Both the position numbers and the translations under genes were made by a program. Below are positions 20,398 to 55,403 of a stretch of 64,000 nucleotides of DNA, one piece after another; within the stretch, counting starts at the first letter, position 1; each line of letters starts with the position of its first letter. The notes beneath the pieces are model-generated. The model ran no database searches. It had not been told where the DNA came from and saw only the letters and a list, made by a program, of their open reading frames with translations. The stretch comes from an uncultured Gammaproteobacteria bacterium (GTDB lineage Bacteria; Patescibacteriota; Patescibacteriia; SBBC01; CAIJZX01), in assembly GCA_964397195.1 (NCBI GenBank), contig CAYNGY010000001.1:134586-198585 (forward strand), in the 5' to 3' direction.

Positions 20398-20427
20398 TTG
20401 CCTAAGGGGCGAAAATATTGGTATGCT
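20398..20427 (+). promoter_or_regulatory. Candidate promoter of leuS, giving a short leader without a Shine-Dalgarno sequence
   Basis: ttgcct (20398-20403), 18-nt spacer, tatgct (20422-20427); about 20 nt before the leuS ATG. Confidence 0.35.
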
Positions 20428-20447
20428 CATACTCTTACCGATACGAT

Positions 20448-36742: not shown

Positions 36743-36749
36743 CTCGCTC

Positions 36750-39700
36750 ATGACCAACGCCCTGCGCCATCTCCGATCGGTAACCTTCCTGCTTACAGCG
36801 GTTGTCCTGAGCTTGACGATCTCATCAGGAGCGCAGCCAACGATTGCTCAAACGACCAGCGTGAAAATCACATCTATCTCGGTGACCGGCTGGACCGCTC
36901 ACACGGCATCAATTTCATTTTCAGCGAATACGACGGAGGATTTTGAAGCCCAGCTCGACTACGGGCCAACCAAAAACTATGGCCTCACCTACCCGGAAGG
37001 GAATTATTCGCGAGTGACAAGCGGACATCGGTTTGACCTCGCTGGCCTCGATGCGGGTACGACCTATCATTTCCGGCTTCGGGTACGACCGCTCAATGGC
37101 GTTAACCCGACCGATACGAGCGCGGATCGGACATTTACGACGCGATCATCGGATCAACCGACAACGCCGGTGGTAACGTTAATGAACGTTGAGTGTACGA
37201 ATGACGCCTGTACGGTTCAATTTTCAACCGCCACCGAAGCCAATGTAAAAATTGGTTGGGGGACAGAATTGCGTAATCCAGTTCTTGCCTCTGCGCTGTG
37301 TGATGAAGCGGGTGGCGGGTATCCAAACTGCGCCGGGGAAACACCCGATCAGTACCGAGCAACGGTGCGCACATTGCGTATGACTGGGTTGACGGCTTCG
37401 ACCGAATACCACTTCCGATTAGCCGCTACCAACCAGGCCGGGTTTGCCTCGATGTCGGGTGCGGCCGGATCGGATTCGACAGTGACCACCGCCGCGAGTA
37501 GTCGTGACCGAACCTTTAGTACCGGAAATTGTACCGGGATTGATAATCGATCGTATCCGATTGGGTCGTGTATGCCGGGAGGCGAGTATTGCAGTCCAAC
37601 GGGTGTTGATCGGCATTGTACAAATAGATGCGGCGCGAGCTGTGCGGCTGGTGAAACCTGTAATATTGCCGGTGGGGAGTGTGTCCAAGATCCGGCCTTA
37701 ACGAATTCGCCCTACCAGTGCAATAAGCCGGCCTGTTACAACAATGGAAACTTCATCTCGCCGGCCTCCGCCGGGTGCTACGCGACATGGCCAAAGTGTA
37801 GCGCCAACACGATCCTGAAGGTGCAGAAAGATCGTGGGTGTAATGTCTGGCTAACCTGCAGCACGAGTATTCAAACGGTTGCCTCAAAAACCGCTCCGGC
37901 CGAGACATTGTGTTTATCGCTGGCGGCCTGTAACCAACTGGGCAAAAACGGATCCTGTACGCATTATTTGCCGCAAGGTCAATGTGATAACGACCCGCTC
38001 CGTTTTTGCGGAAATGATACCGATTGTCTTGCGGGAGGGTCGTGCGTGATTGCCGCGACGAGCGCCAGTCAAAATCCGAGCCTGCAAGACCTCACCTTCA
38101 GATCACCACAGGAAGTATCGACTATCGCGAATTTGTCGGGAAATGTTATTGCCGGGCTCGACTGGACGCAGCAAGGCGGAAATCGGATCATTCAGGGGCA
38201 ACTGCCATGGCAACTGATGCGCCAAATTGGTGGGAACGTCTCACTCCGAAATACGGATTTTGAAACAAACCCGCCGAACCCGTCGCCATGGATTGGAGTG
38301 CCAGTTTCACAGACGCCAATGAGTGCGCTCCAGGTTGAATTTGAAGACAAGGACGTCAGCATCAACCACGTCTTAAAAGTCTCACCGGTAACTCAAGCCG
38401 GGTCTGCCGGTCGATCGTGCGCTGACCCGATCAATCAACAAAATCCAAATATTGGCAAAGCCTGTACCGGCGAGGCAGATGAAACGACCTGTCTGACGAG
38501 CGCATCGACCTGTAACGGACACTTCTTCTGTGCCGCACAAACATCACGATCATGTGTTGTCGATGGAGATTGCCAAGATGCCGACCACCCGACTGATACC
38601 TGTAACACCGGCGGGTATACACTGACTGGTATTAGTTGTACTGAACATGCCGAAACGGCAACGCCGGATTCTGATTGTACCACCCAGTTTGGAGTTGGCC
38701 ACTGTTCTGATAATGCCGCCGTTACCTGCCGCGTGGCCGGTGATTGCGCGGACCCGGCTGCCACGTGTGACGGGTTAAGTAGCAATACTAGTTTCCCGAA
38801 CGCGACCTGTGATCAACGTTCTACTGGGATTTGCTCGAACGAATCATTTGCGGTCGCTCGCGTTCGATTCTCCGGCGCCGCCAGCGGTGAATTCCAGACT
38901 CAGCCAACCGAATACTATTACGCGGAAGCGAGAATTCGCGCTGAATCGGGTGACCCGCTTGTTCGATTCGAACTCGGACATGATGGGTTTACGAAGTTTG
39001 ATGCGACTGATCCGGATACGCGAATCAATAAAAAGACCTATATTGATGTCGTCGCGACGAGCGCTTGGCAGACGGTGAGTATCGGTCCAATTCGTGGACT
39101 TTCCGGCGGAACGCGCGTGGCCGCTGTTTGTGCGGACGCCTCCCAATGCAGTACGTTCTATATTGATGATATTCAGGTCAAGCCGGTTCTCCAGACGACA
39201 ACCAATCCGGACTATGTAACGCCGTCATGTCGTCTCTATCCGAAAGAGGATTCCCCGTCCTGTGACTACACCGATACGTCGGGCGTAACCTACAAGGGCT
39301 GGAAAGGCTACTGTCTGGAGAATGATAGTGTCTCTGGGTCGTGCTTATCGTGGTGGCCGGTTGATATTATTCGCGGGGAGTCGAGTGTCTTTGGCTCCGA
39401 TAAAGTGGCCGGGTATCAAGACCGTACGCCGCTGTATTACTGCGCTGAAGCGGCGGGCTGGAATGGTCGTAACGATTTTAGCTCACAGGCCTATACAGTT
39501 GCCGTTGCCCATAATGCTTCAAATGCTAACGGAAACTGCGAACGCGGCGCGTCGGGATCTTGGACGGTCTCGTCATGCAGTACGAATGGTGGAGCCTGGT
39601 CAACGTACACCATTACACCAAACGATAAGGACTACGGCTTAACTGAAGATCAGATCACCACCGCGACGTGGGATCCAAAGGGCGGGTCGCCAATGGATTG

Positions 39701-42149
39701 GGAAAAGCCGACCTTCTATTTCTACAATACATCAGACTTCCAATCTTCGAGTCCGTCGAATCCGTGGTTGACCGGCCAGCACTGGCAGCACAGCATCAGC
39801 ATGTACCGCGAAGTCGACGAGGTGAATCGCTATATTTACTGGCGCCTGTCCGTGACCAGTTGTTCACCGGGCGCGAATGGAAATTGTGTTGATGCCTACT
39901 TACGATTTAATTTGGACAGCAAAATCCTTGAACAGTATGGTGTCAACGAGAACGACCAAACCGGAGATGAAACAGAAGCCGCAGCGTACCGAGTGTATCT
40001 CAAAGTAAAAGAACAGTGCACAAAGATCGTCGAAGTCGTTGATCCGAGCGGTCAGAATACGGCTTTCGCCGAGCGGGTCAATTCCAAGTCATATACAGTG
40101 CCTGAACTGGGGTATAAGCGAAACACAGACGGCATTCCGTTTGGTGGGATCTCCACACCGGTGACGTCGGAAAATCCGATTGACTGGCCGGCGCTTGATG
40201 TGGCTTCATCTACAGCTGGTAATCAGGCGCGGAGCGGCCCAGCCTATGCGTGTAATGGGGATTGTAGCCAGAACATCTGCCGGGTCACCAATTCCGGCGG
40301 CCAGGTCAAAGATGGAGCAACCTGTCCAAAACTCCTCTCGCAGGCGCGATCGAATTCATGTGGCGGTATTGACTCCGACCTCGATGGCGTCAACGACGAC
40401 ATGTGTACTGGCGGGACAAAGCCGGCCAGTAAGAAGAGCGTACAACTTTTCGATAATAGCCGTTGCGATGTGGCACATGGATACTGTTACGGCACGAATG
40501 AATGTTTAACCTCACCAGTGACCCAAATTTGTGACCAAACATTGGCGGTGACCGCGACCGGGAAGACCAAGCAAGAGGCGATGACGAATTCGACCGCCTG
40601 TCAAGAAACCCGCTTGGCCTGCCGCGATGTGAACGGATCGCTCGTCTTCTCCCCAACGACCTGCCTCGCTGAGAACCAAGACTGCGGAACCGCCACCCGA
40701 CCGGCCAAGTGTAAAGCCGAGCCGAGCGGCACCATGCGCGTGGCCTGTAACGGTTCCTGCGGTGCGAACCAGAGCGTCGTGCGGTATACCACCTTCCAGC
40801 CGGATGAGTCGACGATGACCTGCTACAAGACTGACAAGCAGGATCGCTGTACGAACGCGCCGCAGACCTCATACTACTGTCCGGTCAATGCAACCTATTA
40901 TGTCTCATCAACGCAGTGTCGCAATAGTCCGTGTGGGATGTTTGGTTGTCAGGCGGTACAACGGAAGTTCTGCCAACGGAACGTAAATTTGACCTGTTCG
41001 ACTGACCAGGATTGCTGGACGACGACCACCATCGACCCAAATCTCTGCTCTAACCGTAACGCCGGGTGTACGTGCGAAGTTGCCGGAACGTGTACCGTTG
41101 CGCCGGCACAGCAGTCCTACAATTCCTACGGAACGGCGCCGAAGACCTGTGCCAATGACGCCGAATGTTCATATGACCCGGCCGATTCCCAAGACGCCAA
41201 TCGATTCTACGCGCAAGAAAAAATTAAGCGGTTATTCGCCCGTTCCTACGGTATCTGGGATTGGAATCCGGCCGCTGGAAAATATGAATTGGTCACGGGG
41301 TCGGATCTAGACGCCGAGACGGATGCTGGATTTGTCGGCTGGCGGCCGCCAACAAAAATCTGTCCGACCGAGCCGGTGCGCACCGTCCAATCCTGTACAA
41401 CGAAAACACAGGCCTGCACCGCCTCGCTTGAAATGACCGGCGCCACGAAGAGTACGGTTGAACTGGCGAAGAAAGACGCCGCCGATCGCTGCCGCAATAC
41501 GGTGGCCTGTGACGGTCGTGACTCGCTGTGCAGCGGCGGCACGAGCGTCAAGTACGAAGATTTCCAGGGGACCTGTAATCAAACGGCGGCTGGTTGGACC
41601 TGTAAGGGGCGATGTAGTACTACCTTGGACTACACACTCGCCGCGAATAGTCAGGCGACTCCGCCCAAAACGGAGCCGGTCCGCCCAACAACCACTCCGG
41701 CGGATTACTGCGCGATTCCGCCGACCGTGAAGAATGCCACCTTCACCACCGGGACGAGCATGACCGCCATTATTGACGGCGGGAACGGGAGTATCGGCCT
41801 CAAGTTTAATACGGCCGCCGATCCACAGCAGGTCCCGTTACAGACGATCTCCGTTGATTGGGGGGATGGGTCGCCGGAAACATTCAGCTACCCGTATGCC
41901 CCGCGCACCGACCCGAAAAAGCCGCACATCTTCAGCCACGTCTACACCTACAATAAGTCGGATTCACAGCACTGTAATCCGGCCACCGGTGTCTGTACCT
42001 ACCCAATTAAAATTCAGGTGCAAGATAATTGGGGGTGGTGCTCCGCGGCTCGCTCGAGCGGAAATCCGGCAACGGCGGATACCAAAGGTTGTGATCTTCC
42101 GCCGTCACAATGGTATGATTCCGGCCTGAAGGTGTTGCTCATCCCATAA
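36750..42149 (+). CDS. Giant (about 1800 aa) Cys-rich surface protein with N-terminal FN3-like repeats and a C-terminal PKD-like domain
   Basis: Start moved to Met at 36750, just after the upstream stop. Signal-anchor LRSVTFLLTAVVLSLTISSGA. FN3-like TTYHFRLRVRP and TEYHFRLAATNQAG. A very Cys-rich core. PKD signature ISVDWGDGS...HVYTY at about 41.86-41.95 kb. Confidence 0.8.
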   Translation: MTNALRHLRSVTFLLTAVVLSLTISSGAQPTIAQTTSVKITSISVTGWTAHTASISFSANTTEDFEAQLDYGPTKNYGLTYPEGNYSRVTSGHRFDLAGLDAGTTYHFRLRVRPLNGVNPTDTSADRTFTTRSSDQPTTPVVTLMNVECTNDACTVQFSTATEANVKIGWGTELRNPVLASALCDEAGGGYPNCAGETPDQYRATVRTLRMTGLTASTEYHFRLAATNQAGFASMSGAAGSDSTVTTAASSRDRTFSTGNCTGIDNRSYPIGSCMPGGEYCSPTGVDRHCTNRCGASCAAGETCNIAGGECVQDPALTNSPYQCNKPACYNNGNFISPASAGCYATWPKCSANTILKVQKDRGCNVWLTCSTSIQTVASKTAPAETLCLSLAACNQLGKNGSCTHYLPQGQCDNDPLRFCGNDTDCLAGGSCVIAATSASQNPSLQDLTFRSPQEVSTIANLSGNVIAGLDWTQQGGNRIIQGQLPWQLMRQIGGNVSLRNTDFETNPPNPSPWIGVPVSQTPMSALQVEFEDKDVSINHVLKVSPVTQAGSAGRSCADPINQQNPNIGKACTGEADETTCLTSASTCNGHFFCAAQTSRSCVVDGDCQDADHPTDTCNTGGYTLTGISCTEHAETATPDSDCTTQFGVGHCSDNAAVTCRVAGDCADPAATCDGLSSNTSFPNATCDQRSTGICSNESFAVARVRFSGAASGEFQTQPTEYYYAEARIRAESGDPLVRFELGHDGFTKFDATDPDTRINKKTYIDVVATSAWQTVSIGPIRGLSGGTRVAAVCADASQCSTFYIDDIQVKPVLQTTTNPDYVTPSCRLYPKEDSPSCDYTDTSGVTYKGWKGYCLENDSVSGSCLSWWPVDIIRGESSVFGSDKVAGYQDRTPLYYCAEAAGWNGRNDFSSQAYTVAVAHNASNANGNCERGASGSWTVSSCSTNGGAWSTYTITPNDKDYGLTEDQITTATWDPKGGSPMDWEKPTFYFYNTSDFQSSSPSNPWLTGQHWQHSISMYREVDEVNRYIYWRLSVTSCSPGANGNCVDAYLRFNLDSKILEQYGVNENDQTGDETEAAAYRVYLKVKEQCTKIVEVVDPSGQNTAFAERVNSKSYTVPELGYKRNTDGIPFGGISTPVTSENPIDWPALDVASSTAGNQARSGPAYACNGDCSQNICRVTNSGGQVKDGATCPKLLSQARSNSCGGIDSDLDGVNDDMCTGGTKPASKKSVQLFDNSRCDVAHGYCYGTNECLTSPVTQICDQTLAVTATGKTKQEAMTNSTACQETRLACRDVNGSLVFSPTTCLAENQDCGTATRPAKCKAEPSGTMRVACNGSCGANQSVVRYTTFQPDESTMTCYKTDKQDRCTNAPQTSYYCPVNATYYVSSTQCRNSPCGMFGCQAVQRKFCQRNVNLTCSTDQDCWTTTTIDPNLCSNRNAGCTCEVAGTCTVAPAQQSYNSYGTAPKTCANDAECSYDPADSQDANRFYAQEKIKRLFARSYGIWDWNPAAGKYELVTGSDLDAETDAGFVGWRPPTKICPTEPVRTVQSCTTKTQACTASLEMTGATKSTVELAKKDAADRCRNTVACDGRDSLCSGGTSVKYEDFQGTCNQTAAGWTCKGRCSTTLDYTLAANSQATPPKTEPVRPTTTPADYCAIPPTVKNATFTTGTSMTAIIDGGNGSIGLKFNTAADPQQVPLQTISVDWGDGSPETFSYPYAPRTDPKKPHIFSHVYTYNKSDSQHCNPATGVCTYPIKIQVQDNWGWCSAARSSGNPATADTKGCDLPPSQWYDSGLKVLLIP

Positions 42150-42151
42150 TC

Positions 42152-45100
42152 ATGCGTCGTCTTCCCTCATTTATTTCACGAAAACGAGCGGTTGCTCTGG
42201 TAGCACTGCTCGGTTTCGTGGCGCCGCTTACCGCTTTTGCCCAGTCCTCCACCGATGACACCCGGGTCAAGATATACCAGTTCTTTGGGAATATTCTCCT
42301 TGGTATTTTGCAGACAGTTGCTCAGTTGGTGGCGATGGTCACCCATTTCTTAATCATCATCGCCCAGTACAGCGATTTCACGCGAAATGAGGTAGTGACC
42401 AAGGGCTGGGACATTGTCATCAGCGTGGCCAACATGTTCTTTGTGATCGCACTGCTCGTGATTGCCTTAGGCACGGTCCTGCGAGTCCAAAACTATCGCT
42501 ATAATCGATTACTCGGCAATGTCATCGTCATGGCCTTCCTGACGAACTTCTCGAAGACGATTGCCGCCTTCTTCATCCAATCGTCCCAGGTGGTCATGCT
42601 GACCTTTGTCAACGCCTTCAAGGACGCCGCGTTTGGGAACTTTGCCACCATGTTTGGGCTGGACAAGGTACTAACGTTTTCAACCATTGAGCCGAGCGGG
42701 GCGATTGATGTGCTCGCGGCGGTCCTGATCGGACTTTTTTTCCTAACCGTTGCTCTCATCACCATCCTGGCCTTAGCCGTCGTGTTGGCGGTGCGGATTG
42801 TCATGCTCTGGATCCTCGTGATCCTTTCGCCGTTTGCCTACGCCATGCGGGTGATTCCAAATACGGAAAAATGGGCCACGCAGTGGTGGGGCGAATTTGG
42901 AAAATGGGTCACGAACGGTCCGGTTATCGCCTTCTTTTTATGGTTGGCACTGGCCATTTTGTCGCAATCAAATCAAGCTGGCGGAAGCCCGGCCAGTTTC
43001 ATTACCTCGCAGGCCTCAGTGAAGAAAGCGATTGAAGCTATTCCGCCGTCAGAAACAGCGCTCTTTTTCGGAAAAACGGAACTGCTCGATTTGAATAATT
43101 TTGTTGGCTTCATCGTGTCCATAATTTTCCTCTGGATGGGACTCCAGATGGCTATTTCAACCGGCGGTGTGGCTGGAAAATGGGCCGGAAAAATCGCCGG
43201 CGCGGGCTTAGCCGCCTACGGCACCGTTTCACTCCTCAATGCGGTGCGTGATCGTACCGTTGCCCCAATTCAGGGCTACCTCAGCCAACGTGAACAGCGT
43301 CGCAAGCAGGCGATAACCGAGCGGACCGCCGGACTGACGGCGCGCGTCGACCAAGCCTCGTCACTAACCGTGGGAAATGTGGGCCGAGTCGGGGCCGCCG
43401 CCGGGGCGGGTATCCGTTCAATCGGCAGTGCAGTTAAAGCCGGGGACGCCGGAGTCATTACTGATGCCATGATGTCCGGGTTACGGACCGGAACTCGCGG
43501 TGAACAGCAGCGCCAACAGCGCATGGAAGAATTCCAGCAAGGGCGAGCCGCTCGGCGGGCTGGCGAGATGGACATTGCTAATCTTGATACCCAAGCCGTG
43601 CTCGGGAAGGCCGCTTCCGGATCAGACGAAGACAAGTATGCCGCCACGCAGGAGCTCATTCGGCGAAACGCCTTAAATGCGGATGACTCTTATCACCAGA
43701 GCCTTGTTCAGGGGGCGGCGCAGTATGCCGGCGACCGCAAGATGGGATCGGAGTTCCGTCAGAATCTTGAGAAGCTTAGTCCGGAGCTGGCTAAGCAGGT
43801 GCTCTATCATAACTTTGCCGGTCAAGCCGACCGCGACAAGTATCTGGAGCACGTCCAGCAACGTTCGGCTGCGCTTAAGCTAGAAAAGGGAGATGTAGAG
43901 TCGTTTGGTGGAACACTCGGAAACGAGATGGTTAAATATGCGCGGAATCGAGAGGATCTCGAGAAGATGTCCGGACTATTAGCCGACACGAGCGCGAAAG
44001 AGGAGGCATTCAAATCGCTCGACCTGTCGTCGGTTGCACCAAATGCGACCATTCGGGAGAGACGGAATATCGCCGAAGTGACCGGCCGGTATATGGCGGC
44101 GTTCCGCAATAATGATGGGACGCACATGGAGGATGAAATGAAGCAATGGGTTGAGGCGACGGGAAGTGATACGGTCGCAAAAACAGCTTCGCATACGGAT
44201 CTTTCGAGTAGCGAGGGTGTCCAAGCTCTGAAGAAGTCCGGATTAAAATTCTCCGGTTGGATTGCTATTCGAAAACGTGATAAAAAAACTGCTCAAGCCG
44301 TGAGCGCTGGTCTCAAGGGATGGCAAGATGAAATGGATAGTGCCACACCTGAAGGCGGTGATGTCCAAGCGAATGAGGATTGGCAGTTTGCGGCCGCTCA
44401 ACGATTTGCGGCAAATAATGGCGAGGTTATTGATTACAACTTTGGCACTGCGAAGGGACGGGAGCTGTTTGAGGGTGTCCTCGAAAATGCCAAAGCGGAG
44501 GACGTGAAGTCCATTGATAAATCTGACTTCTACAAGAAGGCAACCGCGGAAGAGAAAGCCTATATCCACCGGGCCATGGCGTTCAACATGCCAAACCCAC
44601 AATTAAGCGCCTTGTTGCTTGATGAAAATAAGACCCTCTCCAAGAGTGTCTTGGCCGAAGCACAGGACGTGTTGGATAATAAAGAAAAGAGCGCGGAAAA
44701 GATACCGAGTACGATTGCGAATAAACTGATTAGCATGAATTCGAACCCGGTGCTTGGGCGGTTTATGAATGCCGAAAAGGCCCGAGTGAACAAGATCAAA
44801 GATGACAAGGCGGCCATGAAGGCACAGGGCTTTGCTGGGCTCCCAACCGACCCGCCAGGGAAGCCAACCCCGGCCAAGCCACTCATGGATGTTGACCGCG
44901 ACACGTTCAATCGAACGAAAAAAGCGATTGCCGAATATACGGCCCTGACCGGTAACGCGGCCGGATTCTGGCTCGATAAAAACGGTGGATATAATGCCGC
45001 TTCGGGTGTCTATCTCGACCGCGCGACGTTCGAGGCTGCAAATCAAGTGGCCGGCTATCAAGCAGCACACGGTATTTCCCGCGTCAGTGGATTAAAGGGA

Positions 45101-47158
45101 TTAAGCGGTGCGACGGGGAAGAAAGCAAATCGTCTTGGCACTGACTTCCGGTCGATGCTCGGTGGGCGCTACGCGGACCGGGCCGCTATTCGCATGACCG
45201 ATCCAAAAGAGATTCAAGAGTTTGCGACCGAGTACGTTGGCGTCTTGGATGAGGAGTATCAGGCCATTGAATCGAAGATTGACAAGACGGCTGGTGATCA
45301 AGTGCGCATGGCCCAACTGAAATCAGCGCGTGAACGCATGGCGAAGGTCGTGTCCGATCCGAGCAGTATGCCGGAGCTGAAGATTTTGAATACCGCTCGC
45401 GTTGGCCAGCGCGCGAAGACCGCCCTCGCTCACGAAGCGACCCACGGCAAGCTCGATCGAATCGATCCAAACGGGGAGCTGCGCCGTCAGCATCTCGAAG
45501 CATTGTCGCCGAAAGATCGTCAGGCCTTAGTGGCTGAGTATCGTACCAAGCTCAAGAACCCACAACTCACCGACGAACAAGCATTTGACGAATACCTGAC
45601 GGAAGGGTTAACAAACGCCTTCCGACCATGGGCCGATCGCTCTGCCTCAGCCGTCACGCTCAGTCCGGAGACGATTGAGGCCTTCCAGGATCAGGCCCTC
45701 GCCGCCGGGGAGAAACCATTCATGACCTCCGGAGTCATGCTCGGTGGGTATGGCAAGAATGCGAAGCAAGTCCAGACCGCGTTAGCCGCCGCCGGATACG
45801 CCGGGGTGGCGAAGGGGAAGGGCTGGCTCAATACGCTCGTCGCGAGCACGAAGGCCACCGCCGGCTCGTTGAAAGAAAACGCGATTATCGCCGGGATGAT
45901 GGGCAAAGAAATGGTTGGTGAAGGCGCCCGAGCGGTTGTCGGCGGCGCCAAGTCGGTGATTGGCGGCGCACAATCCATCGGTCAGGATGTGGCCATGGGT
46001 GCTAAAATGAGCGCCGACGATATCGCGAAACTCCCGATGCTTCAGCGGATTGGTCTGAGTCTCGGCGAGCGCTCTCAGCGTATTCGCACCGACCGCCAAG
46101 CGAGCAAAGAGCGAAAGACCGCTGCCCGTGCCGAAAAAGAGAAGGTCTCCGCGATGTGGGATGAGGCCAAGGCGATGGATGCACAGTTTGACGAACAAAA
46201 ACGTATCGCCAAGCTGGATGAGCGAGCCGCCAAGGCGCAAGAGCAGTATGAAAAGGCCCGGGCCCGCAGCGCGCGGTGGCAGGATGATCGGGTCGGTACG
46301 GATTCATTAGCCAAAGAAGAAGATGATCGGCTAGCGAGCCGGGTGACCCATCTGTCGACCAAGCGCGATGCGCGCGTGAAGCAAGGTAAGGTGGCTGAAG
46401 CGAACGCGTTCGCCACCAAGATTGCCGAACTAGAAACGCGTCGCGAAGGATTACGTCAGGACCAAGCCATCGAACGTCGGAACTATCAAGTCATCGCCGC
46501 AAAAGAAGAGGAACAGGCGCGAATCGCTGCGGAAAAAGCCGTGACCAAGGCCGCTGACGCGCGTCGTGCTAACGCGGCCAAGCAGTCGAAACCCTCGTCA
46601 CCAGTCGCTGTCACAACACCAACGCCAGCTTCGGCCACTCCAGCCGCCACCGTAGCTTCACCACAGCCAACCGCTATTCCGGAACCTCCAACCGCGAAGT
46701 CAGCCGGCCCGACCGCGGCGCCGAAAAACCGGACGCGCCGTGAAGAGCGCAAAGATCAGGTTACGCAAGAGCGGGCGGATCGTGAAGCGCGACGCGATGA
46801 ACAGCGACGAACCGGATCGGCTCCGCGAAAGCAGGTCGTCCGCACCGAAAACGTCGCTACCGCCCGCGTCCCGGAAGTTGACCGAATGATTAGCGAGCTG
46901 GAATCATCGGTCGCGTCCTCCATTGACTCACTGGGACTCCGGTTAGAAGGCGTCATGAGTCAGTTGGCGAGCAAGGCCCCGGAGATGCAATCACAGATTG
47001 AAGAAGTTCAGCGCAATCTTCGGACTGAAATGCAGTCGGCCCGAACCGATCCGAAATCATCAGCGGCGAACGTTGAGCGTATCCAGCGTGAAATGCTCGA
47101 ACAGCTGAAAAAACTGAACAAGAAAGAAGAAACGCGCTCGTCAACGTTTGAAATATAA
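42152..47158 (+). CDS. VirB6/TrbL-like polytopic membrane protein (N-terminal roughly 350 aa) fused to a roughly 1300-aa hydrophilic coiled-coil and Pro/Ala-rich extension
   Basis: Signal peptide (VALVALLGFVAPLTAFAQ) followed by 6-7 TM helices (FLIIIAQY..., FFVIALLVIALGTVL, VIVMAFLTNF, LFFLTVALITILALAVVLAVRIVMLWILVILSPFAY, VIAFFLWLALAIL, FVGFIVSIIFLWMGL). A long charged K/E/A/R-rich region and a PTPASATPAATVASPQPTAIPEPP tract follow. Confidence 0.8.
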   Translation: MRRLPSFISRKRAVALVALLGFVAPLTAFAQSSTDDTRVKIYQFFGNILLGILQTVAQLVAMVTHFLIIIAQYSDFTRNEVVTKGWDIVISVANMFFVIALLVIALGTVLRVQNYRYNRLLGNVIVMAFLTNFSKTIAAFFIQSSQVVMLTFVNAFKDAAFGNFATMFGLDKVLTFSTIEPSGAIDVLAAVLIGLFFLTVALITILALAVVLAVRIVMLWILVILSPFAYAMRVIPNTEKWATQWWGEFGKWVTNGPVIAFFLWLALAILSQSNQAGGSPASFITSQASVKKAIEAIPPSETALFFGKTELLDLNNFVGFIVSIIFLWMGLQMAISTGGVAGKWAGKIAGAGLAAYGTVSLLNAVRDRTVAPIQGYLSQREQRRKQAITERTAGLTARVDQASSLTVGNVGRVGAAAGAGIRSIGSAVKAGDAGVITDAMMSGLRTGTRGEQQRQQRMEEFQQGRAARRAGEMDIANLDTQAVLGKAASGSDEDKYAATQELIRRNALNADDSYHQSLVQGAAQYAGDRKMGSEFRQNLEKLSPELAKQVLYHNFAGQADRDKYLEHVQQRSAALKLEKGDVESFGGTLGNEMVKYARNREDLEKMSGLLADTSAKEEAFKSLDLSSVAPNATIRERRNIAEVTGRYMAAFRNNDGTHMEDEMKQWVEATGSDTVAKTASHTDLSSSEGVQALKKSGLKFSGWIAIRKRDKKTAQAVSAGLKGWQDEMDSATPEGGDVQANEDWQFAAAQRFAANNGEVIDYNFGTAKGRELFEGVLENAKAEDVKSIDKSDFYKKATAEEKAYIHRAMAFNMPNPQLSALLLDENKTLSKSVLAEAQDVLDNKEKSAEKIPSTIANKLISMNSNPVLGRFMNAEKARVNKIKDDKAAMKAQGFAGLPTDPPGKPTPAKPLMDVDRDTFNRTKKAIAEYTALTGNAAGFWLDKNGGYNAASGVYLDRATFEAANQVAGYQAAHGISRVSGLKGLSGATGKKANRLGTDFRSMLGGRYADRAAIRMTDPKEIQEFATEYVGVLDEEYQAIESKIDKTAGDQVRMAQLKSARERMAKVVSDPSSMPELKILNTARVGQRAKTALAHEATHGKLDRIDPNGELRRQHLEALSPKDRQALVAEYRTKLKNPQLTDEQAFDEYLTEGLTNAFRPWADRSASAVTLSPETIEAFQDQALAAGEKPFMTSGVMLGGYGKNAKQVQTALAAAGYAGVAKGKGWLNTLVASTKATAGSLKENAIIAGMMGKEMVGEGARAVVGGAKSVIGGAQSIGQDVAMGAKMSADDIAKLPMLQRIGLSLGERSQRIRTDRQASKERKTAARAEKEKVSAMWDEAKAMDAQFDEQKRIAKLDERAAKAQEQYEKARARSARWQDDRVGTDSLAKEEDDRLASRVTHLSTKRDARVKQGKVAEANAFATKIAELETRREGLRQDQAIERRNYQVIAAKEEEQARIAAEKAVTKAADARRANAAKQSKPSSPVAVTTPTPASATPAATVASPQPTAIPEPPTAKSAGPTAAPKNRTRREERKDQVTQERADREARRDEQRRTGSAPRKQVVRTENVATARVPEVDRMISELESSVASSIDSLGLRLEGVMSQLASKAPEMQSQIEEVQRNLRTEMQSARTDPKSSAANVERIQREMLEQLKKLNKKEETRSSTFEI

Positions 47159-47163
47159 CCATC

Positions 47164-47859
47164 ATGATTCCTCTCGACGCGTATCTCGATAAAGTCCGGG
47201 CCCTCCCACCGTTGATGAAAACCATCATTAATAATGATGCGCTGGGTGATGCGCTGGGTGAACTCGAGGATAAATACCTCTTGTCCGGGGAGCAGGCAAA
47301 AGCGTTACTACTCATTGAGTCCTCAATTATCGGTCAAGAATATGCGCCTGACCAGGTGTATGTGCACATCAAAGAGCTTTTAAAACTCAGCGACCCGATT
47401 GCCCAGCAATTAACCGTCGACTTTCTCGGGAAGATTGTCATGCCCATGCAGTGGTTTGTCGGAAATGTCGAGCAAATCATCCGCGGATTTGGCGGTGACC
47501 CGTCGTCGTTCGCGCACGACATGCAACGCCGATTCCCAGAATTGTCAGCCAGCCCAAGCGGAACGGATGGCAGCGTTCAACAAACGACCGCCGAAAAAAT
47601 CCTCGACCACTTCGCTGAGCATCTCGAAACATTTCCGGGGCGCGCAGAAATTTTATTGCGACTCACTGGCCTCAGCGCGACCGTTGAAGCTCTCGTCGGA
47701 CGACAACACATGAGTCACGAAGAGGGGGAACGAGCGCTCGCCGAGCTCGAGTCGATCAGTGCGGCCATTAATACCCGTGATTTGAACGCGTTTGAGGTCC
47801 AATCTGTTCAGCGCCGCGTAAAACGAATCGTTGATGCGGTGAGTGAGGCCGGCGAATGA
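47164..47859 (+). CDS. Hypothetical soluble protein (231 aa)
   Basis: Tightly packed in the operon, 5-nt gap. No recognisable motif. Confidence 0.65.
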   Translation: MIPLDAYLDKVRALPPLMKTIINNDALGDALGELEDKYLLSGEQAKALLLIESSIIGQEYAPDQVYVHIKELLKLSDPIAQQLTVDFLGKIVMPMQWFVGNVEQIIRGFGGDPSSFAHDMQRRFPELSASPSGTDGSVQQTTAEKILDHFAEHLETFPGRAEILLRLTGLSATVEALVGRQHMSHEEGERALAELESISAAINTRDLNAFEVQSVQRRVKRIVDAVSEAGE

Positions 47860-48152
47860 CCATTACCGTCCCGGCCGCTCGCGTTCACCCGCGTGTCGCC
47901 ATGCAACAGGTCGGCTATGTACCGTTTGGTGAAGGTCGGGGCAATGAGCTCTCGTTTATTCGCCGACTGGGATCACAGTTCTATCCGCGATTTCATATTT
48001 ACCTGACGCCATCCGCCGCGCAGTGGCGTCTGACGCTTCATCTTGACCAAAAGCAGGCTTCCTACCAAGGGAGTCACGCCCATAGCGGCGAGTATGATGG
48101 GGAGTTAGTTTTGGCCGAGGGTCAGCGTATCCGAGGCCTGTTCGGCGTCTAG
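47856..48152 (+). CDS. Hypothetical protein (98 aa)
   Basis: 4-nt overlap with the upstream gene, consistent with translational coupling. No recognisable motif. Confidence 0.5.
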   Translation: MTITVPAARVHPRVAMQQVGYVPFGEGRGNELSFIRRLGSQFYPRFHIYLTPSAAQWRLTLHLDQKQASYQGSHAHSGEYDGELVLAEGQRIRGLFGV

Positions 48153-48193
48153 TTATTCACAGGGGGTAATGATTTTGTTTTTGGGCGGATTTA

Positions 48194-48202
48194 TGATATA
48201 AT
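48194..48202 (+). promoter_or_regulatory. Extended -10 promoter element (TGaTATAAT) in the only sizeable gap (72 nt) of the gene train; a candidate internal promoter for the T4SS-like sub-operon
   Basis: tgatataat at 48194-48202. An AGAGGA Shine-Dalgarno sequence precedes the ATG at 48225. Confidence 0.45.
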
Positions 48203-48224
48203 CACGGCCTCAAAACAAAGAGGA

Positions 48225-49706
48225 ATGGAAGATATTTGGCAACAATTTCATCGACTCCCGAAGGTGATTCGGGATGCAGTAGCCTCTCCTGAGGCGCTGA
48301 CTGCGATTAATCGGATAGAAGCAGCTCACCCAGGCCTCGATTTGGCCGGTTTTGTGATGCGGGTAATGGTTCGTGAGCTGTCGGTCGAGCATCTTCCCGC
48401 AGAACTGATGAAGGCGGGAAATCTTGATGAATCCGCCGCGAAAGACGTAGTCGAAGATTTGACCGTAACGGTGTTCCGTACCGTTAGTGAATACCTAGGT
48501 CTCGCACCGGTAAAACCAGCTAGCGCCACGGCAGTCACTCCGAAGGCCACTCCGCCTATCACGACCCCGGTGACCGAAAACCCGCCGACCATGACACCAC
48601 GTGTTGCCCCTGCTCCGCCGAATGTCCCACTGGCCTCGCCGTCTCCCGTCCAAGCTGCGCCATCGTCGCCGCTAGCCCAGCCGAATGTACCCATCGGCAA
48701 CATCTCCCCGGCGCCAACACTTTCGACCGAGGATGACGCCGAAATTGCCGCGCATTCCGAAAAACTCCGCGCCATGACGTCCGCCGTCGGGCCGGCTGAT
48801 TTTGATACCATCGCCCAGTCCATTCTTGACCAGCACCATCTCGCCTTCCAAGATGACTTGTTGACCAAGCGCGCCGTTGCGGTAATCAAAGCCCGATTGA
48901 AGGGAATCCGCTCGAATGACGACACGAAAGCCATGCTGATGCGACCTCCGAAAGTCGGCGGTCTCGGTCTTGATGGAGACATCGTGACCGCTGTCATGCG
49001 CACAATTGAAGATCAAGCCTCACACGCTCATGCGCAGGGCATGACAGCCCGACCGGCCGCACCGGTTCCGCCGCCCCCACCACGAGTCCCGGCCCCGCAA
49101 ACACAAGTCCCGGCCGCAATCCCACCGTTGACCCGTGATTTTTCGACCATGAAACCCGATCAGCCGAGCGCTTCGGTAACAGAACAGCCGCGGGCGAGCC
49201 GACCAATCATTCGCCCGGTCGATATTCCGCCGCCACCAGCCATGCCAACCGCCGCGCCGGCCACCCCGGCTAAGCCGAAAGCCGTGCCAATCCCGGTTGC
49301 TGTTCCGACGCCAGCTCCAGCGGTCCAACGAGCTCGCGGCTCAGATCGTCCGTCTGTGTCGGATATCACCCTCCCGACGACCACGCTCGGACCGGCGGAA
49401 GAGATGCAGAGCTTCACCCTAGCGCAATTTCGACGTCTCGGGCAAGGTGCGGCCGAATCGGCAAAAAAGATACTGGATAAATTAAAGCATTTAGAAGAAG
49501 AATCTTTTTCGCTCTGGGCCGAAGCGGTCGCTGGATGGCGTCAGAGCGAGGTGTATTCCCTCTACCTTGATATGGGACGCCAGTGTCTCGATCAGAATAT
49601 TTCCATCGATCAGGTTATCCAGCGTCGCGCGAGCGCCGGTCAACTCTATCTATCAGAACATGAGTTCAATGTGCTCGCCGACATGAATCGTCAGCTCCAA
49701 CTCTAG
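48225..49706 (+). CDS. Pro/Ala-rich hypothetical protein (493 aa)
   Basis: A central PPITTPVTENPPTMTPRVAPAPPNVPLASPSPVQAAP... low-complexity region between ordered N- and C-terminal segments. A VirB10/TrbI-like role is only speculation. Confidence 0.7.
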   Translation: MEDIWQQFHRLPKVIRDAVASPEALTAINRIEAAHPGLDLAGFVMRVMVRELSVEHLPAELMKAGNLDESAAKDVVEDLTVTVFRTVSEYLGLAPVKPASATAVTPKATPPITTPVTENPPTMTPRVAPAPPNVPLASPSPVQAAPSSPLAQPNVPIGNISPAPTLSTEDDAEIAAHSEKLRAMTSAVGPADFDTIAQSILDQHHLAFQDDLLTKRAVAVIKARLKGIRSNDDTKAMLMRPPKVGGLGLDGDIVTAVMRTIEDQASHAHAQGMTARPAAPVPPPPPRVPAPQTQVPAAIPPLTRDFSTMKPDQPSASVTEQPRASRPIIRPVDIPPPPAMPTAAPATPAKPKAVPIPVAVPTPAPAVQRARGSDRPSVSDITLPTTTLGPAEEMQSFTLAQFRRLGQGAAESAKKILDKLKHLEEESFSLWAEAVAGWRQSEVYSLYLDMGRQCLDQNISIDQVIQRRASAGQLYLSEHEFNVLADMNRQLQL

Positions 49707-49707
49707 T

Positions 49708-50220
49708 ATGGCCACCCAGTTTACTGTTCCACAATTCACGAATGAGCCGGATAAGATCATCGGTCCGATCGTTGTTCGGCAATTCATCATCCTGCTCGTC
49801 GGTGCCGGGCTGGTGGTTGGGGCCTATCAGCTTTTTTATCGACTGATAAACTCGTCGGTTGGGTTTCTTTTCTCGGCGGTAATCATTTTAAGTCTGACGG
49901 CGGCTTTCGCCTTCATTCGAGTTAACGGTCGCCCGTTTCATCTTTTTATCTTGAATGTGATTGAGTCGTTACGCGTGCCGTCGATGCGTCTCTGGAACAA
50001 CATGGCAGCCGAGCGAATTCAGTACCGCCGTGAACCGCCGCCGCCGGCTCCGCCGCCGACAAAAGCCCCGCTCGTGCAAACGAATTTGGCCCGCCTAGCT
50101 ATGTTAGTGGATACCGGCGGAGCGTTCCACGAAGATGAGGATATCCTCTACTGGGGTGAGACATTACCGAAAGCTACTCGCCAAGCCGAGGTGCTTACCA
50201 ATCAGGTTGATCGCGAATAA
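49708..50220 (+). CDS. PrgI/VirB3-like small two-TM membrane protein
   Basis: 170 aa. Two adjacent hydrophobic helices (IVVRQFIILLVGAGLVVGAY / VGFLFSAVIILSLTAAFAFI). It sits immediately upstream of the VirB4 gene, as in Gram-positive T4SS. Confidence 0.55.
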   Translation: MATQFTVPQFTNEPDKIIGPIVVRQFIILLVGAGLVVGAYQLFYRLINSSVGFLFSAVIILSLTAAFAFIRVNGRPFHLFILNVIESLRVPSMRLWNNMAAERIQYRREPPPPAPPPTKAPLVQTNLARLAMLVDTGGAFHEDEDILYWGETLPKATRQAEVLTNQVDRE

Positions 50221-50226
50221 TTCCGT

Positions 50227-55399: not shown

Positions 55400-55403
55400 G
55401 TGT

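What the first reader, a model, noticed from the sequence alone, without database searches (positions are those of the whole stretch)
42152..47158. VirB6-like channel subunit with a 1300-aa coiled-coil/Pro-rich extension
The first roughly 350 aa have the signal peptide plus multi-TM layout of VirB6/TrbL. The remaining roughly 1300 aa are hydrophilic, K/E/A/R-rich with long predicted helices, and end in Pro/Thr/Ala tracts. Extended VirB6 proteins of this kind are rare. The tail could project through the envelope toward a partner cell or act as a scaffold for the giant proteins.
Basis: partly seen in the sequence, partly recalled or inferred. Interest (0 to 1): 0.65.

Follow-up and report, generated by a model that had tools for sequence, protein, structure and literature searches.

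The report
Long-tailed VirB6-like channel protein, Patescibacteria
This gene encodes the VirB6-type membrane subunit of the type IV secretion-like machine of an ultrasmall (CPR/Patescibacteria) bacterium; its long tail is normal for this clade, probably faces the cytoplasm, and contains a previously undescribed, conserved domain with a zinc-protease-like HExxH…E signature.

Summary
The ORF is real: 42152..47158, + strand, 1668 aa, the same in two assemblies. Residues 1-362 are a signal peptide plus about 7 TM helices. This domain is best read as a divergent TrbL/VirB6 domain. Pfam TrbL passes its cutoff in three clear homologs but not in the query. The three best PDB fold matches are R388 TrwI/VirB6, though weakly. 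The gene sits in a conserved CPR T4SS operon: giant surface proteins, this gene, PrgI/VirB3, TrsD-like, VirB4, pilin-like genes.

All 72 complete genes from GTDB species genomes are 821-2056 aa, each with at least 472 aa of tail.

"1300-aa coiled coil" is also too broad. The tail is modular, and only about 1306-1480 is a long charged helix. The Pro/Thr/Ala tract (1478-1525) is not at the end.

The new result is a compact domain at 943-1195. It carries H1094-E-x-x-H1098 and E1147/E1151. It occurs in 145 protein clusters, almost only in these tails, and matches no known family or solved fold. H1094E always co-occurs with E1151K.

Charge bias and composition favour a cytoplasmic tail (about 70%), against the idea that it reaches a partner cell.

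Verdict: a new variant of the known "extended VirB6" class, of moderate interest.

The parts
42152..47158 (+). Whole gene: extended VirB6/TrbL-like protein, 1668 aa plus stop codon
   Evidence: Single ORF. Identical protein in NCBI and Logan assemblies. 294 homologs, all from Patescibacteria.
42152..42241 (+). aa 1-30: Sec-type signal peptide or N-terminal anchor (basic n-region, hydrophobic core, AFA|QS)
   Evidence: Hydropathy. Family N-terminus has net charge +3.6 and A30 is at least 90% conserved. Cleavage itself is inferred.
42242..43237 (+). aa 31-362: polytopic TrbL/VirB6-like membrane domain (6 certain and 2 ambiguous TM segments). Invariant residues: F76, Q146, F152, R215, W220, P227, G256, P257, F261, W264.
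   Evidence: Conserved in all 119 homologs. Alignments A1 and A2. AF2 pLDDT 83. Top 3 PDB matches are TrwI/VirB6. Pfam TrbL on homologs.
43238..43411 (+). aa 363-420: strongly basic juxtamembrane helix (family mean 15 K+R). This is the main determinant of the predicted cytoplasmic orientation of the tail.
43412..44839 (+). aa 421-896: hydrophilic region shared only with close relatives (about 10-30 of 119); no known domain. Helical character is assumed from composition, not modelled.
   Evidence: BLAST coverage map. No Pfam or PDB sequence hit.
44840..44887 (+). aa 897-912: short Pro-rich linker (PTDPPGKPTPAKP)
44978..45736 (+). aa 943-1195: conserved alpha/beta 'HExxH...E' module, a putative gluzincin-like domain specific to CPR VirB6 tails
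   Evidence: Family alignment. AF2 pLDDT 82, pTM 0.73. 145 representative clusters among 1.84 billion proteins. 132 of 158 carriers have the VirB6-like N-domain. No Pfam, NCBIfam, PHROGs, PDB or BFVD match.
45431..45445 (+). H1094-E1095-A-T-H1098 motif on the predicted active-site helix
   Evidence: Translation. Conservation across 84 full-length modules: H 83% (otherwise E), E 99%, H 99%.
45590..45616 (+). E1147-Y-L-T-E1151-G-L-T-N1155: conserved downstream helix. E1147 is 99% conserved. E1151 is the putative third metal ligand and co-varies with H1094.
   Evidence: Translation. Conservation. Co-variation: H with E/D in 66 of 70, E with K in 14 of 14.
45737..46051 (+). aa 1196-1300: Gly/Ala-rich, low-charge segment unique to this protein
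   Evidence: Composition. No homolog coverage.
46067..46591 (+). aa 1306-1480: long Pro/Gly-free, 40-48% charged segment (single helix or coiled coil). This is the only part that fits the 'coiled-coil' description.
46583..46726 (+). aa 1478-1525: Pro/Thr/Ala/Ser-rich linker
46727..47155 (+). aa 1526-1668: Arg/Glu/Ser-rich C-terminal region, unique to this protein
   Evidence: Composition. No homolog coverage. Only a sub-threshold Pfam hit (Baculo_PEP_C, E = 0.2).
26838..42149 (+). Three upstream giant Cys-rich proteins with Sec-type N-termini (1882, 1419 and 1824 aa; fn3 / Pur_ac_phosph_N-like), in the same operon
   Evidence: A homolog of the third lies upstream in 48 of 80 related loci.
47164..49706 (+). 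Downstream conserved genes with no known family (231, 98 and 493 aa), without signal peptides
   Evidence: The 493-aa protein lies downstream in 42 of 80 loci.
49708..52861 (+). PrgI/VirB3-like (49708-50220), TrsD/TraC-like (50227-50952) and VirB4-type ATPase (50939-52861)
   Evidence: Pfam PrgI, P-loop_TraG and AAA_10. TraC-like PF26593 at the same position in L002. Synteny in 40, 39 and 29 of 80 loci.
54203..57877 (+). Two T4SS_pilin (PF18895) domain proteins of about 400 aa (54203-55399, 56645-57877), flanking a 414-aa ORF

Best explanation
The gene encodes the VirB6/TrbL-family polytopic membrane subunit of the chromosomal T4SS-like machine of a Patescibacteria (CPR) bacterium related to Kerfeldbacteria.

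Shown or strongly supported: the N-terminal ~360 residues (signal peptide plus about 7 TM helices) are a divergent TrbL/VirB6 domain. It is encoded in a conserved operon with PrgI/VirB3, TrsD-like, VirB4 and pilin-like genes, and presumably forms the membrane translocon with them.

Shown: a long hydrophilic C-terminal tail is a universal feature of this CPR family. Here it is unusually long (about 1300 aa) and modular. In order it has a basic juxtamembrane helix, a clade-specific hydrophilic region, a Pro linker, a compact alpha/beta domain, a Gly/Ala-rich segment, a ~175-aa highly charged helix, a Pro/Thr/Ala linker and a unique C-terminal region. The alpha/beta domain has a near-invariant HExxH...E...E signature.

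Inferred (about 70%): the tail stays on the cytoplasmic side, next to the VirB4 ATPase.

Inferred (about 30%): the tail works there as a docking or processing platform for whatever this machine moves, since the machine lacks a locus-encoded coupling protein. The HExxH domain would be a gluzincin-type metal site with ligands H1094, H1098 and E1151 and catalytic base E1095. It would be active in most members. In the sub-clade where His-to-Glu and Glu-to-Lys changes replace the metal site with a salt bridge, it would be a structural pseudo-enzyme.
For: VirB6 assignment.
- Pfam TrbL scores 30.6, 29.4 and 29.0 bits (cutoff 25.9) on homologs P0004, P0056 and P0059, covering profile positions ~21-184 of 215 in the region equivalent to query aa ~110-280. 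These homologs match the query at E = 1e-132 to 1e-64.
- The AF2 model of aa 1-420 (pLDDT 83.3) has R388 TrwI/VirB6 chains as its top three hits among 350,542 PDB chains.
- hhalign aligns the family's most conserved motif to the TrwI core at P = 0.011, against 0.34-0.52 for decoys.
- Operon order is conserved in L002 and across 80 GTDB loci.
- VirB6 homologs near virB4 in Patescibacteria, and the essentiality of virB6 in Southlakia, are published (PMC12102498).

The tail is universal: 72 of 72 complete genes have at least 472 aa after the TM domain.

The module.
- Conservation: N1080 94%, H1094 83%, E1095 99%, H1098 99%, E1147 99%, N1155 88%.
- H1094/E1151 co-variation is perfect (66 + 14).
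- The confident AF2 model has a 3-stranded sheet, with the HExxH on helix 154-170 and both Glu residues on helix 207-222.
- 145 clusters carry it, nearly all inside VirB6-like proteins.

Cytoplasmic tail.
- K+R bias is +6.8 and +16.3 for the tail-in models against -15.9 and -6.3 for the tail-out models. The tail-in models hold in 94-100% of 85 members.
- Tail composition is 29.8% charged, 0 Cys. Cytoplasmic proteins of the window have 21-25% and 0-1.3%. Secreted proteins have 10-18% and 1.3-5.4%.
- No hydrophobic segment occurs beyond aa 335.
- A. tumefaciens and Brucella VirB6 and ComB6 have cytoplasmic C-termini (as cited in PMC7648143).

No coupling protein: none in the window's locus. T4CP is rarely near virB4 and is non-essential in Southlakia (PMC12102498, PMC10633639).
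Against: - The query itself has no Pfam or NCBIfam hit.
- The Foldseek E-values are only 0.02-0.08, with TM-scores of 0.26-0.37.
- The profile-profile test is not significant on its own (HHalign probability 3.8%).
- The co-variation may stem from a single ancestral event.
- The topology call rests mostly on the basic cluster after the last TM, because the internal loops alone are uninformative. It also depends on the status of two ambiguous hydrophobic segments.
- Experimentally studied extended VirB6 tails (Anaplasma VirB6-3 and -4, F TraG) are extracytoplasmic (PMC7648143).
- Only 10 of 80 GTDB loci (37 of the 120 closest homologs) carry the module, so it is accessory to the machine.
Confidence: 0.6

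Rival explanations
1. Same VirB6-like channel subunit, but the tail is extracytoplasmic, as in Anaplasma VirB6-3/-4 and F-plasmid TraG. It would extend through the thin CPR wall and S-layer towards the host cell. The HExxH domain would act outside as a peptidase on the bacterium's own or the host's peptidoglycan or surface proteins, substituting for the VirB1-type hydrolase missing from this locus. This is essentially the first reader's idea.
For: Surface exposure of extended VirB6 C-termini was shown in Anaplasma, and the F TraG C-domain acts outside the cytoplasm (PMC7648143). No VirB1-like hydrolase was recognised in the window's locus, and VirB1 homologs are mostly not linked to virB4 in Patescibacteria (PMC12102498). 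Pro/Thr/Ala linkers are common in wall-spanning proteins. Mapping onto the 5-TM A. tumefaciens model with one extra TM would put the tail outside. The internal loops alone do not discriminate.
Against: Both tail-out models give a strongly inverted K+R bias (-15.9 and -6.3), with 0-6% of 85 family members positive. About 15 K+R residues sit directly after the last TM. The composition is unlike the secreted proteins of the same operon, with no Cys and 30% charged residues. The module is absent from most family members, so it cannot be the system's general wall hydrolase.
Confidence: 0.25
2. The tail has no specific catalytic or docking role. It would be a fast-evolving, largely flexible spacer or steric element attached to an essential VirB6 core, for example to tune assembly or spacing from VirB4. 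The HExxH domain would be a structural relic (pseudo-enzyme) throughout the family.
For: The tails diverge very quickly. Homolog coverage drops from 119 to fewer than 30 within 150 residues of the TM domain, and aa 1200-1668 is unique. Tail lengths vary from 472 to 1687 aa. 14 of 84 modules have lost the first His. No known domain is found in any tail, including those of 2000-2300-aa relatives.
Against: 99% conservation of E1095, H1098 and E1147 across modules only about 30% identical overall indicates strong selection on a specific site, not a relic. A tail of at least 472 aa is retained in every one of 72 genes in genomes under severe reduction.
Confidence: 0.1
3. The N-terminal domain is not a VirB6/TrbL homolog at all. 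It would be an unrelated polytopic membrane protein that merely sits in the T4SS-like operon.
For: The query has no direct Pfam or NCBIfam hit. The HHalign probability is only 3.8%. The Foldseek TM-scores are below 0.4.
Against: Three homologs pass the Pfam TrbL gathering cutoff, and others give sub-threshold TrbL hits over the same region. TrwI/VirB6 takes all three top ranks among 350,542 PDB chains. The position directly upstream of VirB3- and VirB4-type genes matches monoderm T4SS operons. A published analysis finds VirB6 in these loci (PMC12102498).
Confidence: 0.05

Closest known systems
Patescibacteria (CPR) T4SS VirB6 homologs (Quinonero-Coronel et al. 2025, PMC12102498; Se T4SS of Southlakia epibionticum, Wang et al. 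2023, PMC10633639)
   Same: Same phylum. Same operon context: PrgI/VirB3, TrsD-like, VirB4 and VirB2-like pilin genes, with no relaxase or locus-encoded coupling protein. The polytopic protein is recognised through the MPF_T VirB6/TrbL profile.
   Different: Those papers list the homologs but, in the text searched, say nothing about the universal long tail or any HExxH domain. This member has one of the longest tails (top 3 of 72). I did not compare it directly with the Southlakia protein, because no sequence was available.
'Extended-VirB6' proteins (Alvarez-Martinez & Christie 2009 class, as summarised in PMC12857230): Rickettsiales VirB6 paralogs, F-plasmid TraG
   Same: A TrbL/VirB6 polytopic domain plus a large C-proximal hydrophilic domain. 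The function of the extra domains is acknowledged as unknown.
   Different: Anaplasma extensions are built of tandem repeats and are surface-exposed (PMC7648143). This tail has no tandem repeats, is modular with a conserved HExxH domain, and is predicted to be cytoplasmic. There is no detectable sequence similarity between the tails.
R388 TrwI / A. tumefaciens VirB6 (canonical MPF_T VirB6, 279-420 aa)
   Same: Best structural match of the N-domain. The core motif region (two TM helices, L-S/G-P-L, a Trp-containing loop, then another TM helix) aligns. N-terminus outside and C-terminus inside, if my topology is right.
   Different: All 120 TrwI relatives are of canonical size with no tail. Sequence similarity to the CPR family is at the limit of detection (P = 0.011). 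The CPR domain has a cleavable-looking signal peptide and more TM segments.
Monoderm VirB6-like proteins with long C-terminal regions (pCW3 TcpH, 832 aa; ICEBs1 ConG and Tn916 Orf15 from my own knowledge)
   Same: Monoderm T4SS. Multi-TM N-terminal domain followed by several hundred hydrophilic residues. The CPR T4SS is phylogenetically closest to monoderm (MPF_FATA) systems (PMC12102498).
   Different: There is no detectable profile similarity between the CPR N-domain and TcpH (hhalign P = 0.076, the same as the controls). The TcpH tail lacks the HExxH module.
Gluzincin metallopeptidases (clan MA(E): HExxH plus a downstream Glu ligand, e.g. thermolysin M4, neprilysin M13, minigluzincins)
   Same: HExxH on a helix that follows a small beta-sheet. 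There is a conserved Glu in an 'E-G' context on a later helix, 53 residues after the second His, which is within the family range from my own knowledge. There is also a conserved Tyr and Asn nearby. The H-to-E / E-to-K co-variation links the two putative ligand positions.
   Different: No sequence-profile or Foldseek match to any peptidase. No similarity to the R388 ArdC zincin. Metal binding and activity are untested. 17% of members lack the first His.

Membership tests
TrbL/VirB6 (Pfam PF04610) | Significant match of the protein itself to the family profile | tested here: not met
   The query has no Pfam or NCBIfam hit at E <= 1.
TrbL/VirB6 (Pfam PF04610) | Match of unambiguous homologs to the family profile over the same region (transitive homology) | tested here: met
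   P0004, P0056 and P0059 score 30.6, 29.4 and 29.0 bits against a cutoff of 25.9. P0034, P0097, P0063, P0028 and P0165 give sub-threshold hits. All cover profile positions ~21-190 of 215. These proteins match the query N-domain at E <= 1e-64.
TrbL/VirB6 (Pfam PF04610) | Profile-profile similarity to canonical VirB6 (TrwI family) | tested here: inconclusive
   hhalign gives P = 0.011 over 89 columns with probability 3.8%. Reversed decoys give P = 0.34-0.52. The TrwI profile is shallow, since all members are at least 51% identical.
TrbL/VirB6 (Pfam PF04610) | Fold similar to a solved VirB6 | tested here: inconclusive
TrbL/VirB6 (Pfam PF04610) | Polytopic inner-membrane protein with at least 5 TM helices | tested here: met
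   6 certain and 2 ambiguous hydrophobic segments after the signal peptide. The AF2 model is all-helical.
TrbL/VirB6 (Pfam PF04610) | Encoded with VirB3/VirB4-type genes in a T4SS locus | tested here: met
   PrgI, TrsD-like, VirB4 and T4SS_pilin genes lie downstream. The order is conserved in L002 and in 29-42 of 80 loci.
'Extended-VirB6' subtype | At least 5 hydrophobic helices plus a large central or C-proximal hydrophilic domain (definition quoted in PMC12857230) | tested here: met
   The TM domain spans aa 31-362 and the hydrophilic tail aa 363-1668, with no further hydrophobic segment.
'Extended-VirB6' subtype | Extracytoplasmic or surface location of the extension (shown for Anaplasma and F TraG; not part of the formal definition) | tested here: inconclusive
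   Positive-inside scoring and composition favour a cytoplasmic tail. There is no experimental or dedicated-predictor test.
Gluzincin / zincin metallopeptidase (for the aa 943-1195 module) | HExxH motif with conserved catalytic Glu and both His residues | tested here: met
   H 83%, E 99%, H 99% across 84 modules. 108 HExxH, 16 EExxH and 4 with no motif among the 128 carriers that span it.
Gluzincin / zincin metallopeptidase (for the aa 943-1195 module) | Third ligand Glu on a downstream helix | tested here: inconclusive
   E1147 (99%) and E1151 (E/D in 66 of 70 HExxH members) lie on model helix 207-222. E1151 co-varies perfectly with H1094. The geometry could not be measured because no coordinates were accessible.
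Gluzincin / zincin metallopeptidase (for the aa 943-1195 module) | Zincin fold detectable by structure or profile comparison | tested here: not met
   Foldseek against the PDB gives best E = 1.9 and against BFVD best E = 1.3, with no peptidase among the hits. Pfam, NCBIfam, PHROGs and the PDB profile search give nothing. hhalign against the ArdC zincin gives P = 0.067.
Gluzincin / zincin metallopeptidase (for the aa 943-1195 module) | Zinc binding and peptidase activity | not testable with these tools
   Requires biochemistry.
Coiled-coil protein (for the tail) | Extended heptad periodicity above chance | tested here: not met
   A home-made heptad score finds 34 residues, against 14 +/- 15 in shuffles (maximum 37). 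Only 1347-1380 is flagged. This is not a validated predictor. COILS, Marcoil and DeepCoil were not available.

The most novel reading that the evidence does not exclude
CPR/Patescibacteria T4SSs, which are essential for the epibiotic lifestyle and lack a dedicated coupling protein, would use the cytoplasmic tail of VirB6 as their substrate receptor. In a subset of lineages, including this one, that tail carries a previously unrecognised and structurally novel active zinc metallopeptidase. It would sit at the channel entrance and process cargo or machine subunits as they enter. This would be a protease built into a T4SS translocon subunit, which has no described precedent.
Probability: 0.15. 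Interest if true: 0.75.

Novelty: new variant of a known kind. Interest (0 to 1): 0.45.

Why it matters
The Patescibacteria T4SS is the first T4SS shown to be essential for its bearer's survival (PMC10633639, PMC12857230). What it transports, and how substrates are recognised without a coupling protein or relaxase, is unknown. A 2025 review states that the role of the hydrophilic domains of extended VirB6 proteins 'is not yet known' (PMC12857230).

This analysis adds three things.
1. A long tail is a universal, defining feature of the CPR VirB6 family. It is not a rarity.
2. The tail probably faces the cytoplasm, which argues against the intuitive 'reaches the host' idea.
3. It defines a compact, conserved HExxH...E domain found essentially only in these tails. 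The domain has specific residues (H1094, E1095, H1098, E1147, E1151) that can be mutated in the genetically tractable Saccharibacteria/Southlakia system or tested in vitro.

For the window itself the gene is otherwise an expected component of a known kind of locus.

Tried and rejected
1. Direct Pfam and NCBIfam scans of the query and of its N-terminal 383 aa gave no hit.
2. A PDB sequence-profile search with the full-length family alignment A1 was swamped by coiled-coil proteins (dynactin, kinesin, SMC) matching the low-complexity tails. It is uninformative for the TM domain.
I rebuilt the alignment as A2.
4. The search for homologous proteins with the module alignment A3 returned nothing, not even known members. 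This was a failure of the word-based candidate step, not a biological negative. The exhaustive representative search replaced it.
6. My first hhalign run used a wrong flag (-glob) and is void. I repeated it correctly.
7. The GenBank accessions for R388 and pCW3 were not in the collection. The RefSeq accessions worked.
8. TcpH (pCW3) as a monoderm VirB6-like comparator showed no signal above the controls.
9. The R388 ArdC zincin and the pCW3 metal-dependent hydrolase as comparators for the module showed no similarity.
10. Pfam scans of the longest-tailed relatives and of module carriers without an N-domain, looking for compartment-diagnostic domains, found nothing.
11. A tandem-repeat origin of the tail, as in Anaplasma, is rejected: 0 repeats.
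12. Internal promoters or terminators that would split the gene are not enriched over shuffles.
Full report
**1. The observation**

The window contains one uninterrupted ORF at exactly the stated coordinates: 42152..47158, + strand, ATG start, 1668 aa. It begins 3 nt after the stop of an 1824-aa upstream gene and lies in a long co-directional gene array running from about 26 kb to 59 kb. The identical protein is recorded from NCBI and from an independent Logan assembly of SRR12487045. It is therefore not an assembly or frameshift artefact.

Hydropathy shows a Sec-type N-terminus (basic MRRLPSFISRKR, a hydrophobic core, then AFA|QS). Hydrophobic segments follow at about 45-70, 85-107, 124-142, 184-206, 210-232, 253-271 and 317-335. 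There are none beyond that point. The remainder is Ala/Glu/Lys/Arg-rich and contains no Cys.

**2. What the tail really looks like**

A BLAST map of the query against 119 homologs shows the following:

- aa 1-360 is conserved in all of them.
- aa 360-880 is shared with only about 10-30 close relatives.
- A separate block at aa ~960-1200 recurs in about 25-30 homologs.
- aa 1200-1668 is unique to this protein.

A crude heptad score is no higher than in shuffled tails: 34 residues against 14 ± 15. Only aa 1306-1480 is a long Pro/Gly-free stretch with 40-48% charged residues.

The Pro/Thr/Ala tract is real but short (aa 1478-1525), and about 140 more residues follow it. A second small Pro linker sits at 897-912.

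The tail has no tandem repeats, unlike the Anaplasma VirB6 extensions. '1300-aa coiled coil ending in Pro/Thr/Ala tracts' is therefore an over-generalisation. The tail is modular.

**3. Is the N-terminal domain VirB6/TrbL?**

The query itself gets no Pfam or NCBIfam hit. The case rests on four indirect lines.

- **Pfam on homologs.** The family is large: 294 hits, all from Patescibacteria. Several members carry precomputed TrbL annotations. When re-scanned, three homologs pass the PF04610 gathering cutoff (30.6, 29.4 and 29.0 bits against 25.9). Others give sub-threshold hits. All fall on the region equivalent to query aa ~110-280 and cover about 160 of 215 profile positions.
- **Structure.** An AF2 model of aa 1-420 built on 85 sequences is confident (pLDDT 83.3, pTM 0.72). 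Its three best Foldseek matches among 350,542 PDB chains are all TrwI/VirB6 of the R388 T4SS, with probability 0.94-0.98. The E-values are only 0.02-0.08 and the TM-scores 0.26-0.37.
- **Profile-profile comparison.** Comparison with a TrwI-family profile aligns the family's most conserved motif (R-I-x-x-L-W-I-L-V-x-L-S-P-L-A-Y…W-W) with the TrwI core. P = 0.011, against 0.34-0.52 for reversed decoys. This is not significant on its own.
- **Context.** PrgI (VirB3-like), a TrsD/TraC-like protein, a VirB4-type ATPase and two T4SS_pilin proteins lie downstream. The same order is found around a 33%-identical homolog. Across 80 loci from GTDB species representatives, a homolog of the upstream giant is present in 48, the 493-aa protein in 42, PrgI in 40, the TrsD-like protein in 39 and VirB4 in 29. 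These counts are limited by the flank length.

A 2025 survey reports VirB6 homologs next to virB4 across Patescibacteria. It notes that virB6 is essential in Southlakia epibionticum (PMC12102498).

Taken together I put the VirB6-family assignment at about 0.9.

**4. 'Rare' is wrong for this clade**

Loci retrieved from GTDB genomes by N-domain peptide motifs alone form a sample that does not depend on the tail. They gave 72 complete genes:

- Length ranges from 821 to 2056 aa, median 929.
- Every gene has at least 472 aa after the TM domain.
- None is of canonical size.

By contrast, all 120 TrwI relatives are 279-420 aa.

They span Kerfeldbacteria, Falkowbacteria, Uhrbacteria, Veblenbacteria, Microgenomates and Paceibacterota.

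The query's ~1310-aa tail is among the longest; 3 of 72 reach 1300 aa or more. 'Extended-VirB6' is itself a named class, and the function of its hydrophilic domains is acknowledged as unknown (PMC12857230).

**5. A new conserved domain in the tail**

The aa 943-1195 block aligns across family members, with a striking pattern. Across 84 full-length copies the conservation is:

| Residue | Conservation |
|---|---|
| N1080 | 94% |
| H1094 | 83% (otherwise Glu) |
| E1095 | 99% |
| H1098 | 99% |
| E1147 | 99% |
| Y1148 | 83% |
| N1155 | 88% |

The motif coordinates were verified by translation.

AF2 on 23 sequences gives a confident compact model (pLDDT 82, pTM 0.73). It has three short strands. 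The HExxH lies on helix 154-170, and E1147 and E1151 lie on helix 207-222. This layout is compatible with a minimal gluzincin.

Residue 1151, in an 'E-G-L' context, co-varies perfectly with residue 1094:

- 66 of the 70 HExxH members have Glu or Asp at 1151, and none has Lys or Arg.
- All 14 EExxH members have Lys at 1151.

This is what one expects if His-1094 and Glu-1151 are neighbouring metal ligands that were jointly replaced by a Glu-Lys salt bridge. The 14 may form a single clade, so the nominal Fisher p-value of 7e-16 overstates independence.

An exhaustive HMMER search of 1.84 billion representative proteins finds the domain in only 145 clusters. It almost always sits at position ~570-1300 of proteins 830-3271 aa long. 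Of the 158 carriers in hand, 132 have the VirB6-like N-domain. Most of the rest are short fragments.

The domain matches nothing in:

- Pfam, NCBIfam or PHROGs
- PDB sequences
- Foldseek against the PDB (best E = 1.9) or BFVD (best E = 1.3)
- the R388 ArdC zincin

I therefore call it a putative gluzincin-like domain with an undemonstrated fold relationship. It is present in 37 of the 120 closest homologs and in 10 of 80 GTDB loci. It is therefore an accessory part of the machine, not a universal one.

**6. Which side of the membrane?**

I scored four topology models. They differ in whether the two ambiguous segments (124-142 and 346-364) span the membrane. The K+R bias was computed across 85 family members.

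| Model | K+R bias (inside minus outside) | Family members with positive bias |
|---|---|---|
| Tail-in, 346-364 spans | +6.8 | 94% |
| Tail-in, 124-142 spans | +16.3 | 100% |
| Tail-out, neither spans | -15.9 | 0% |
| Tail-out, both span | -6.3 | 6% |

The signal comes mainly from about 15 Lys/Arg residues directly after the last TM. The internal loops alone are uninformative.

Composition points the same way:

| Protein set in this window | Charged residues | Cys |
|---|---|---|
| The tail | 29.8% | 0% |
| Cytoplasmic proteins | 21-25% | 0-1.3% |
| Secreted giants and pilin-like proteins | 10-18% | 1.3-5.4% |

A. tumefaciens and Brucella VirB6 and ComB6 also have cytoplasmic C-termini. However, Anaplasma VirB6-3/-4 and F TraG extensions are extracytoplasmic (PMC7648143).

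I put the cytoplasmic orientation at about 70%. The giant neighbours have Sec-type N-termini. A cytoplasmic tail would not scaffold them.

**7. Mechanism proposed**

Shown: this is a VirB6-family translocon subunit in a conserved CPR T4SS operon. It has a universal, modular tail that carries a conserved HExxH…E domain.

Inferred: the tail hangs into the cytoplasm beside VirB4. In a machine whose locus lacks a coupling protein or relaxase (PMC12102498; PMC10633639), it offers a docking or processing platform. The charged helix and the Pro-rich linkers would act as spacers.

Inferred: the HExxH domain is a metal-dependent hydrolase in most lineages and a pseudo-enzyme in the EExxH/K sub-clade.

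Rivals:
- An extracytoplasmic tail with a wall- or host-directed peptidase (0.25).
- A non-specific spacer with a relic domain (0.10).
- An N-domain that is not VirB6 at all (0.05).

**8. Novelty and verdict**

The gene is an expected component of a published kind of locus, and 'extended VirB6' is a known class.

New here:
- The extension is universal in the CPR family.
- The tail is probably cytoplasmic.
- An apparently undescribed, family-specific HExxH…E domain is defined. Literature searches for VirB6 with HExxH, and for 'extended VirB6', found nothing relevant.

I classify the finding as a new variant of a known kind, with interest 0.45.

Noticed in passing
window 20418-23279 (+): The leucyl-tRNA synthetase carries a NUDIX hydrolase domain (PF00293, aa 391-516, E = 5e-11) inserted right after the editing domain. 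This is an unusual fusion for LeuRS.
   Followed up: no
window 26838-42149 (+): Three consecutive giant proteins (1882, 1419 and 1824 aa) have Sec-type N-termini, 1.3-5.4% Cys and weak fn3 / Pur_ac_phosph_N / BNR-like hits. They lie directly upstream of the VirB6-like gene. A homolog of the third is upstream of the VirB6-like gene in 48 of 80 related GTDB loci, so the giant-protein/T4SS linkage is conserved.
   Followed up: partly
window 54203-55399 and 56645-57877 (+): The two proteins with the T4SS_pilin domain (PF18895) are about 400 aa long and contain Cys. Classical VirB2 pilins are about 100 aa, and the pilin domain occupies only aa ~70-145 of each.
   Followed up: no
window 47164-49706 (+): Three genes with no known family (231, 98 and 493 aa; the last has long Pro/Ala-rich stretches) separate the VirB6-like gene from PrgI. 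The 493-aa protein is conserved downstream in 42 of 80 loci, and the same 237/99/473-aa trio is present in L002. They have no signal peptide and a cytoplasm-like composition, which makes them candidate partners of the tail.
   Followed up: partly
window 50227-50952 (+): The 241-aa ORF between PrgI and VirB4 overlaps the VirB4 start by 14 nt. It has no Pfam hit here, but its positional equivalent in L002 is annotated TraC-like (PF26593). It is probably the 'TrsD' component reported as the most abundant CPR T4SS gene (PMC12102498).
   Followed up: partly
window 36675 (start of the 1824-aa ORF): The listed TTG start overlaps the preceding gene by 68 nt. The signal-peptide-like sequence (MTNALRHLRSVTFLLTAVVLSLTISSGAQPTIAQ) begins about 26 codons later, and the Logan gene call gives 1805 aa. 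The true start is probably downstream of 36675.
   Followed up: no
L006, L009, L013 and many other loci (record titles): Many GTDB-representative MAGs carrying this CPR-specific gene are titled 'uncultured Gammaproteobacteria bacterium' (TPA assemblies), and one is titled 'Planctomycetota'. These are likely placeholder or wrong taxonomic labels in the records.
   Followed up: no
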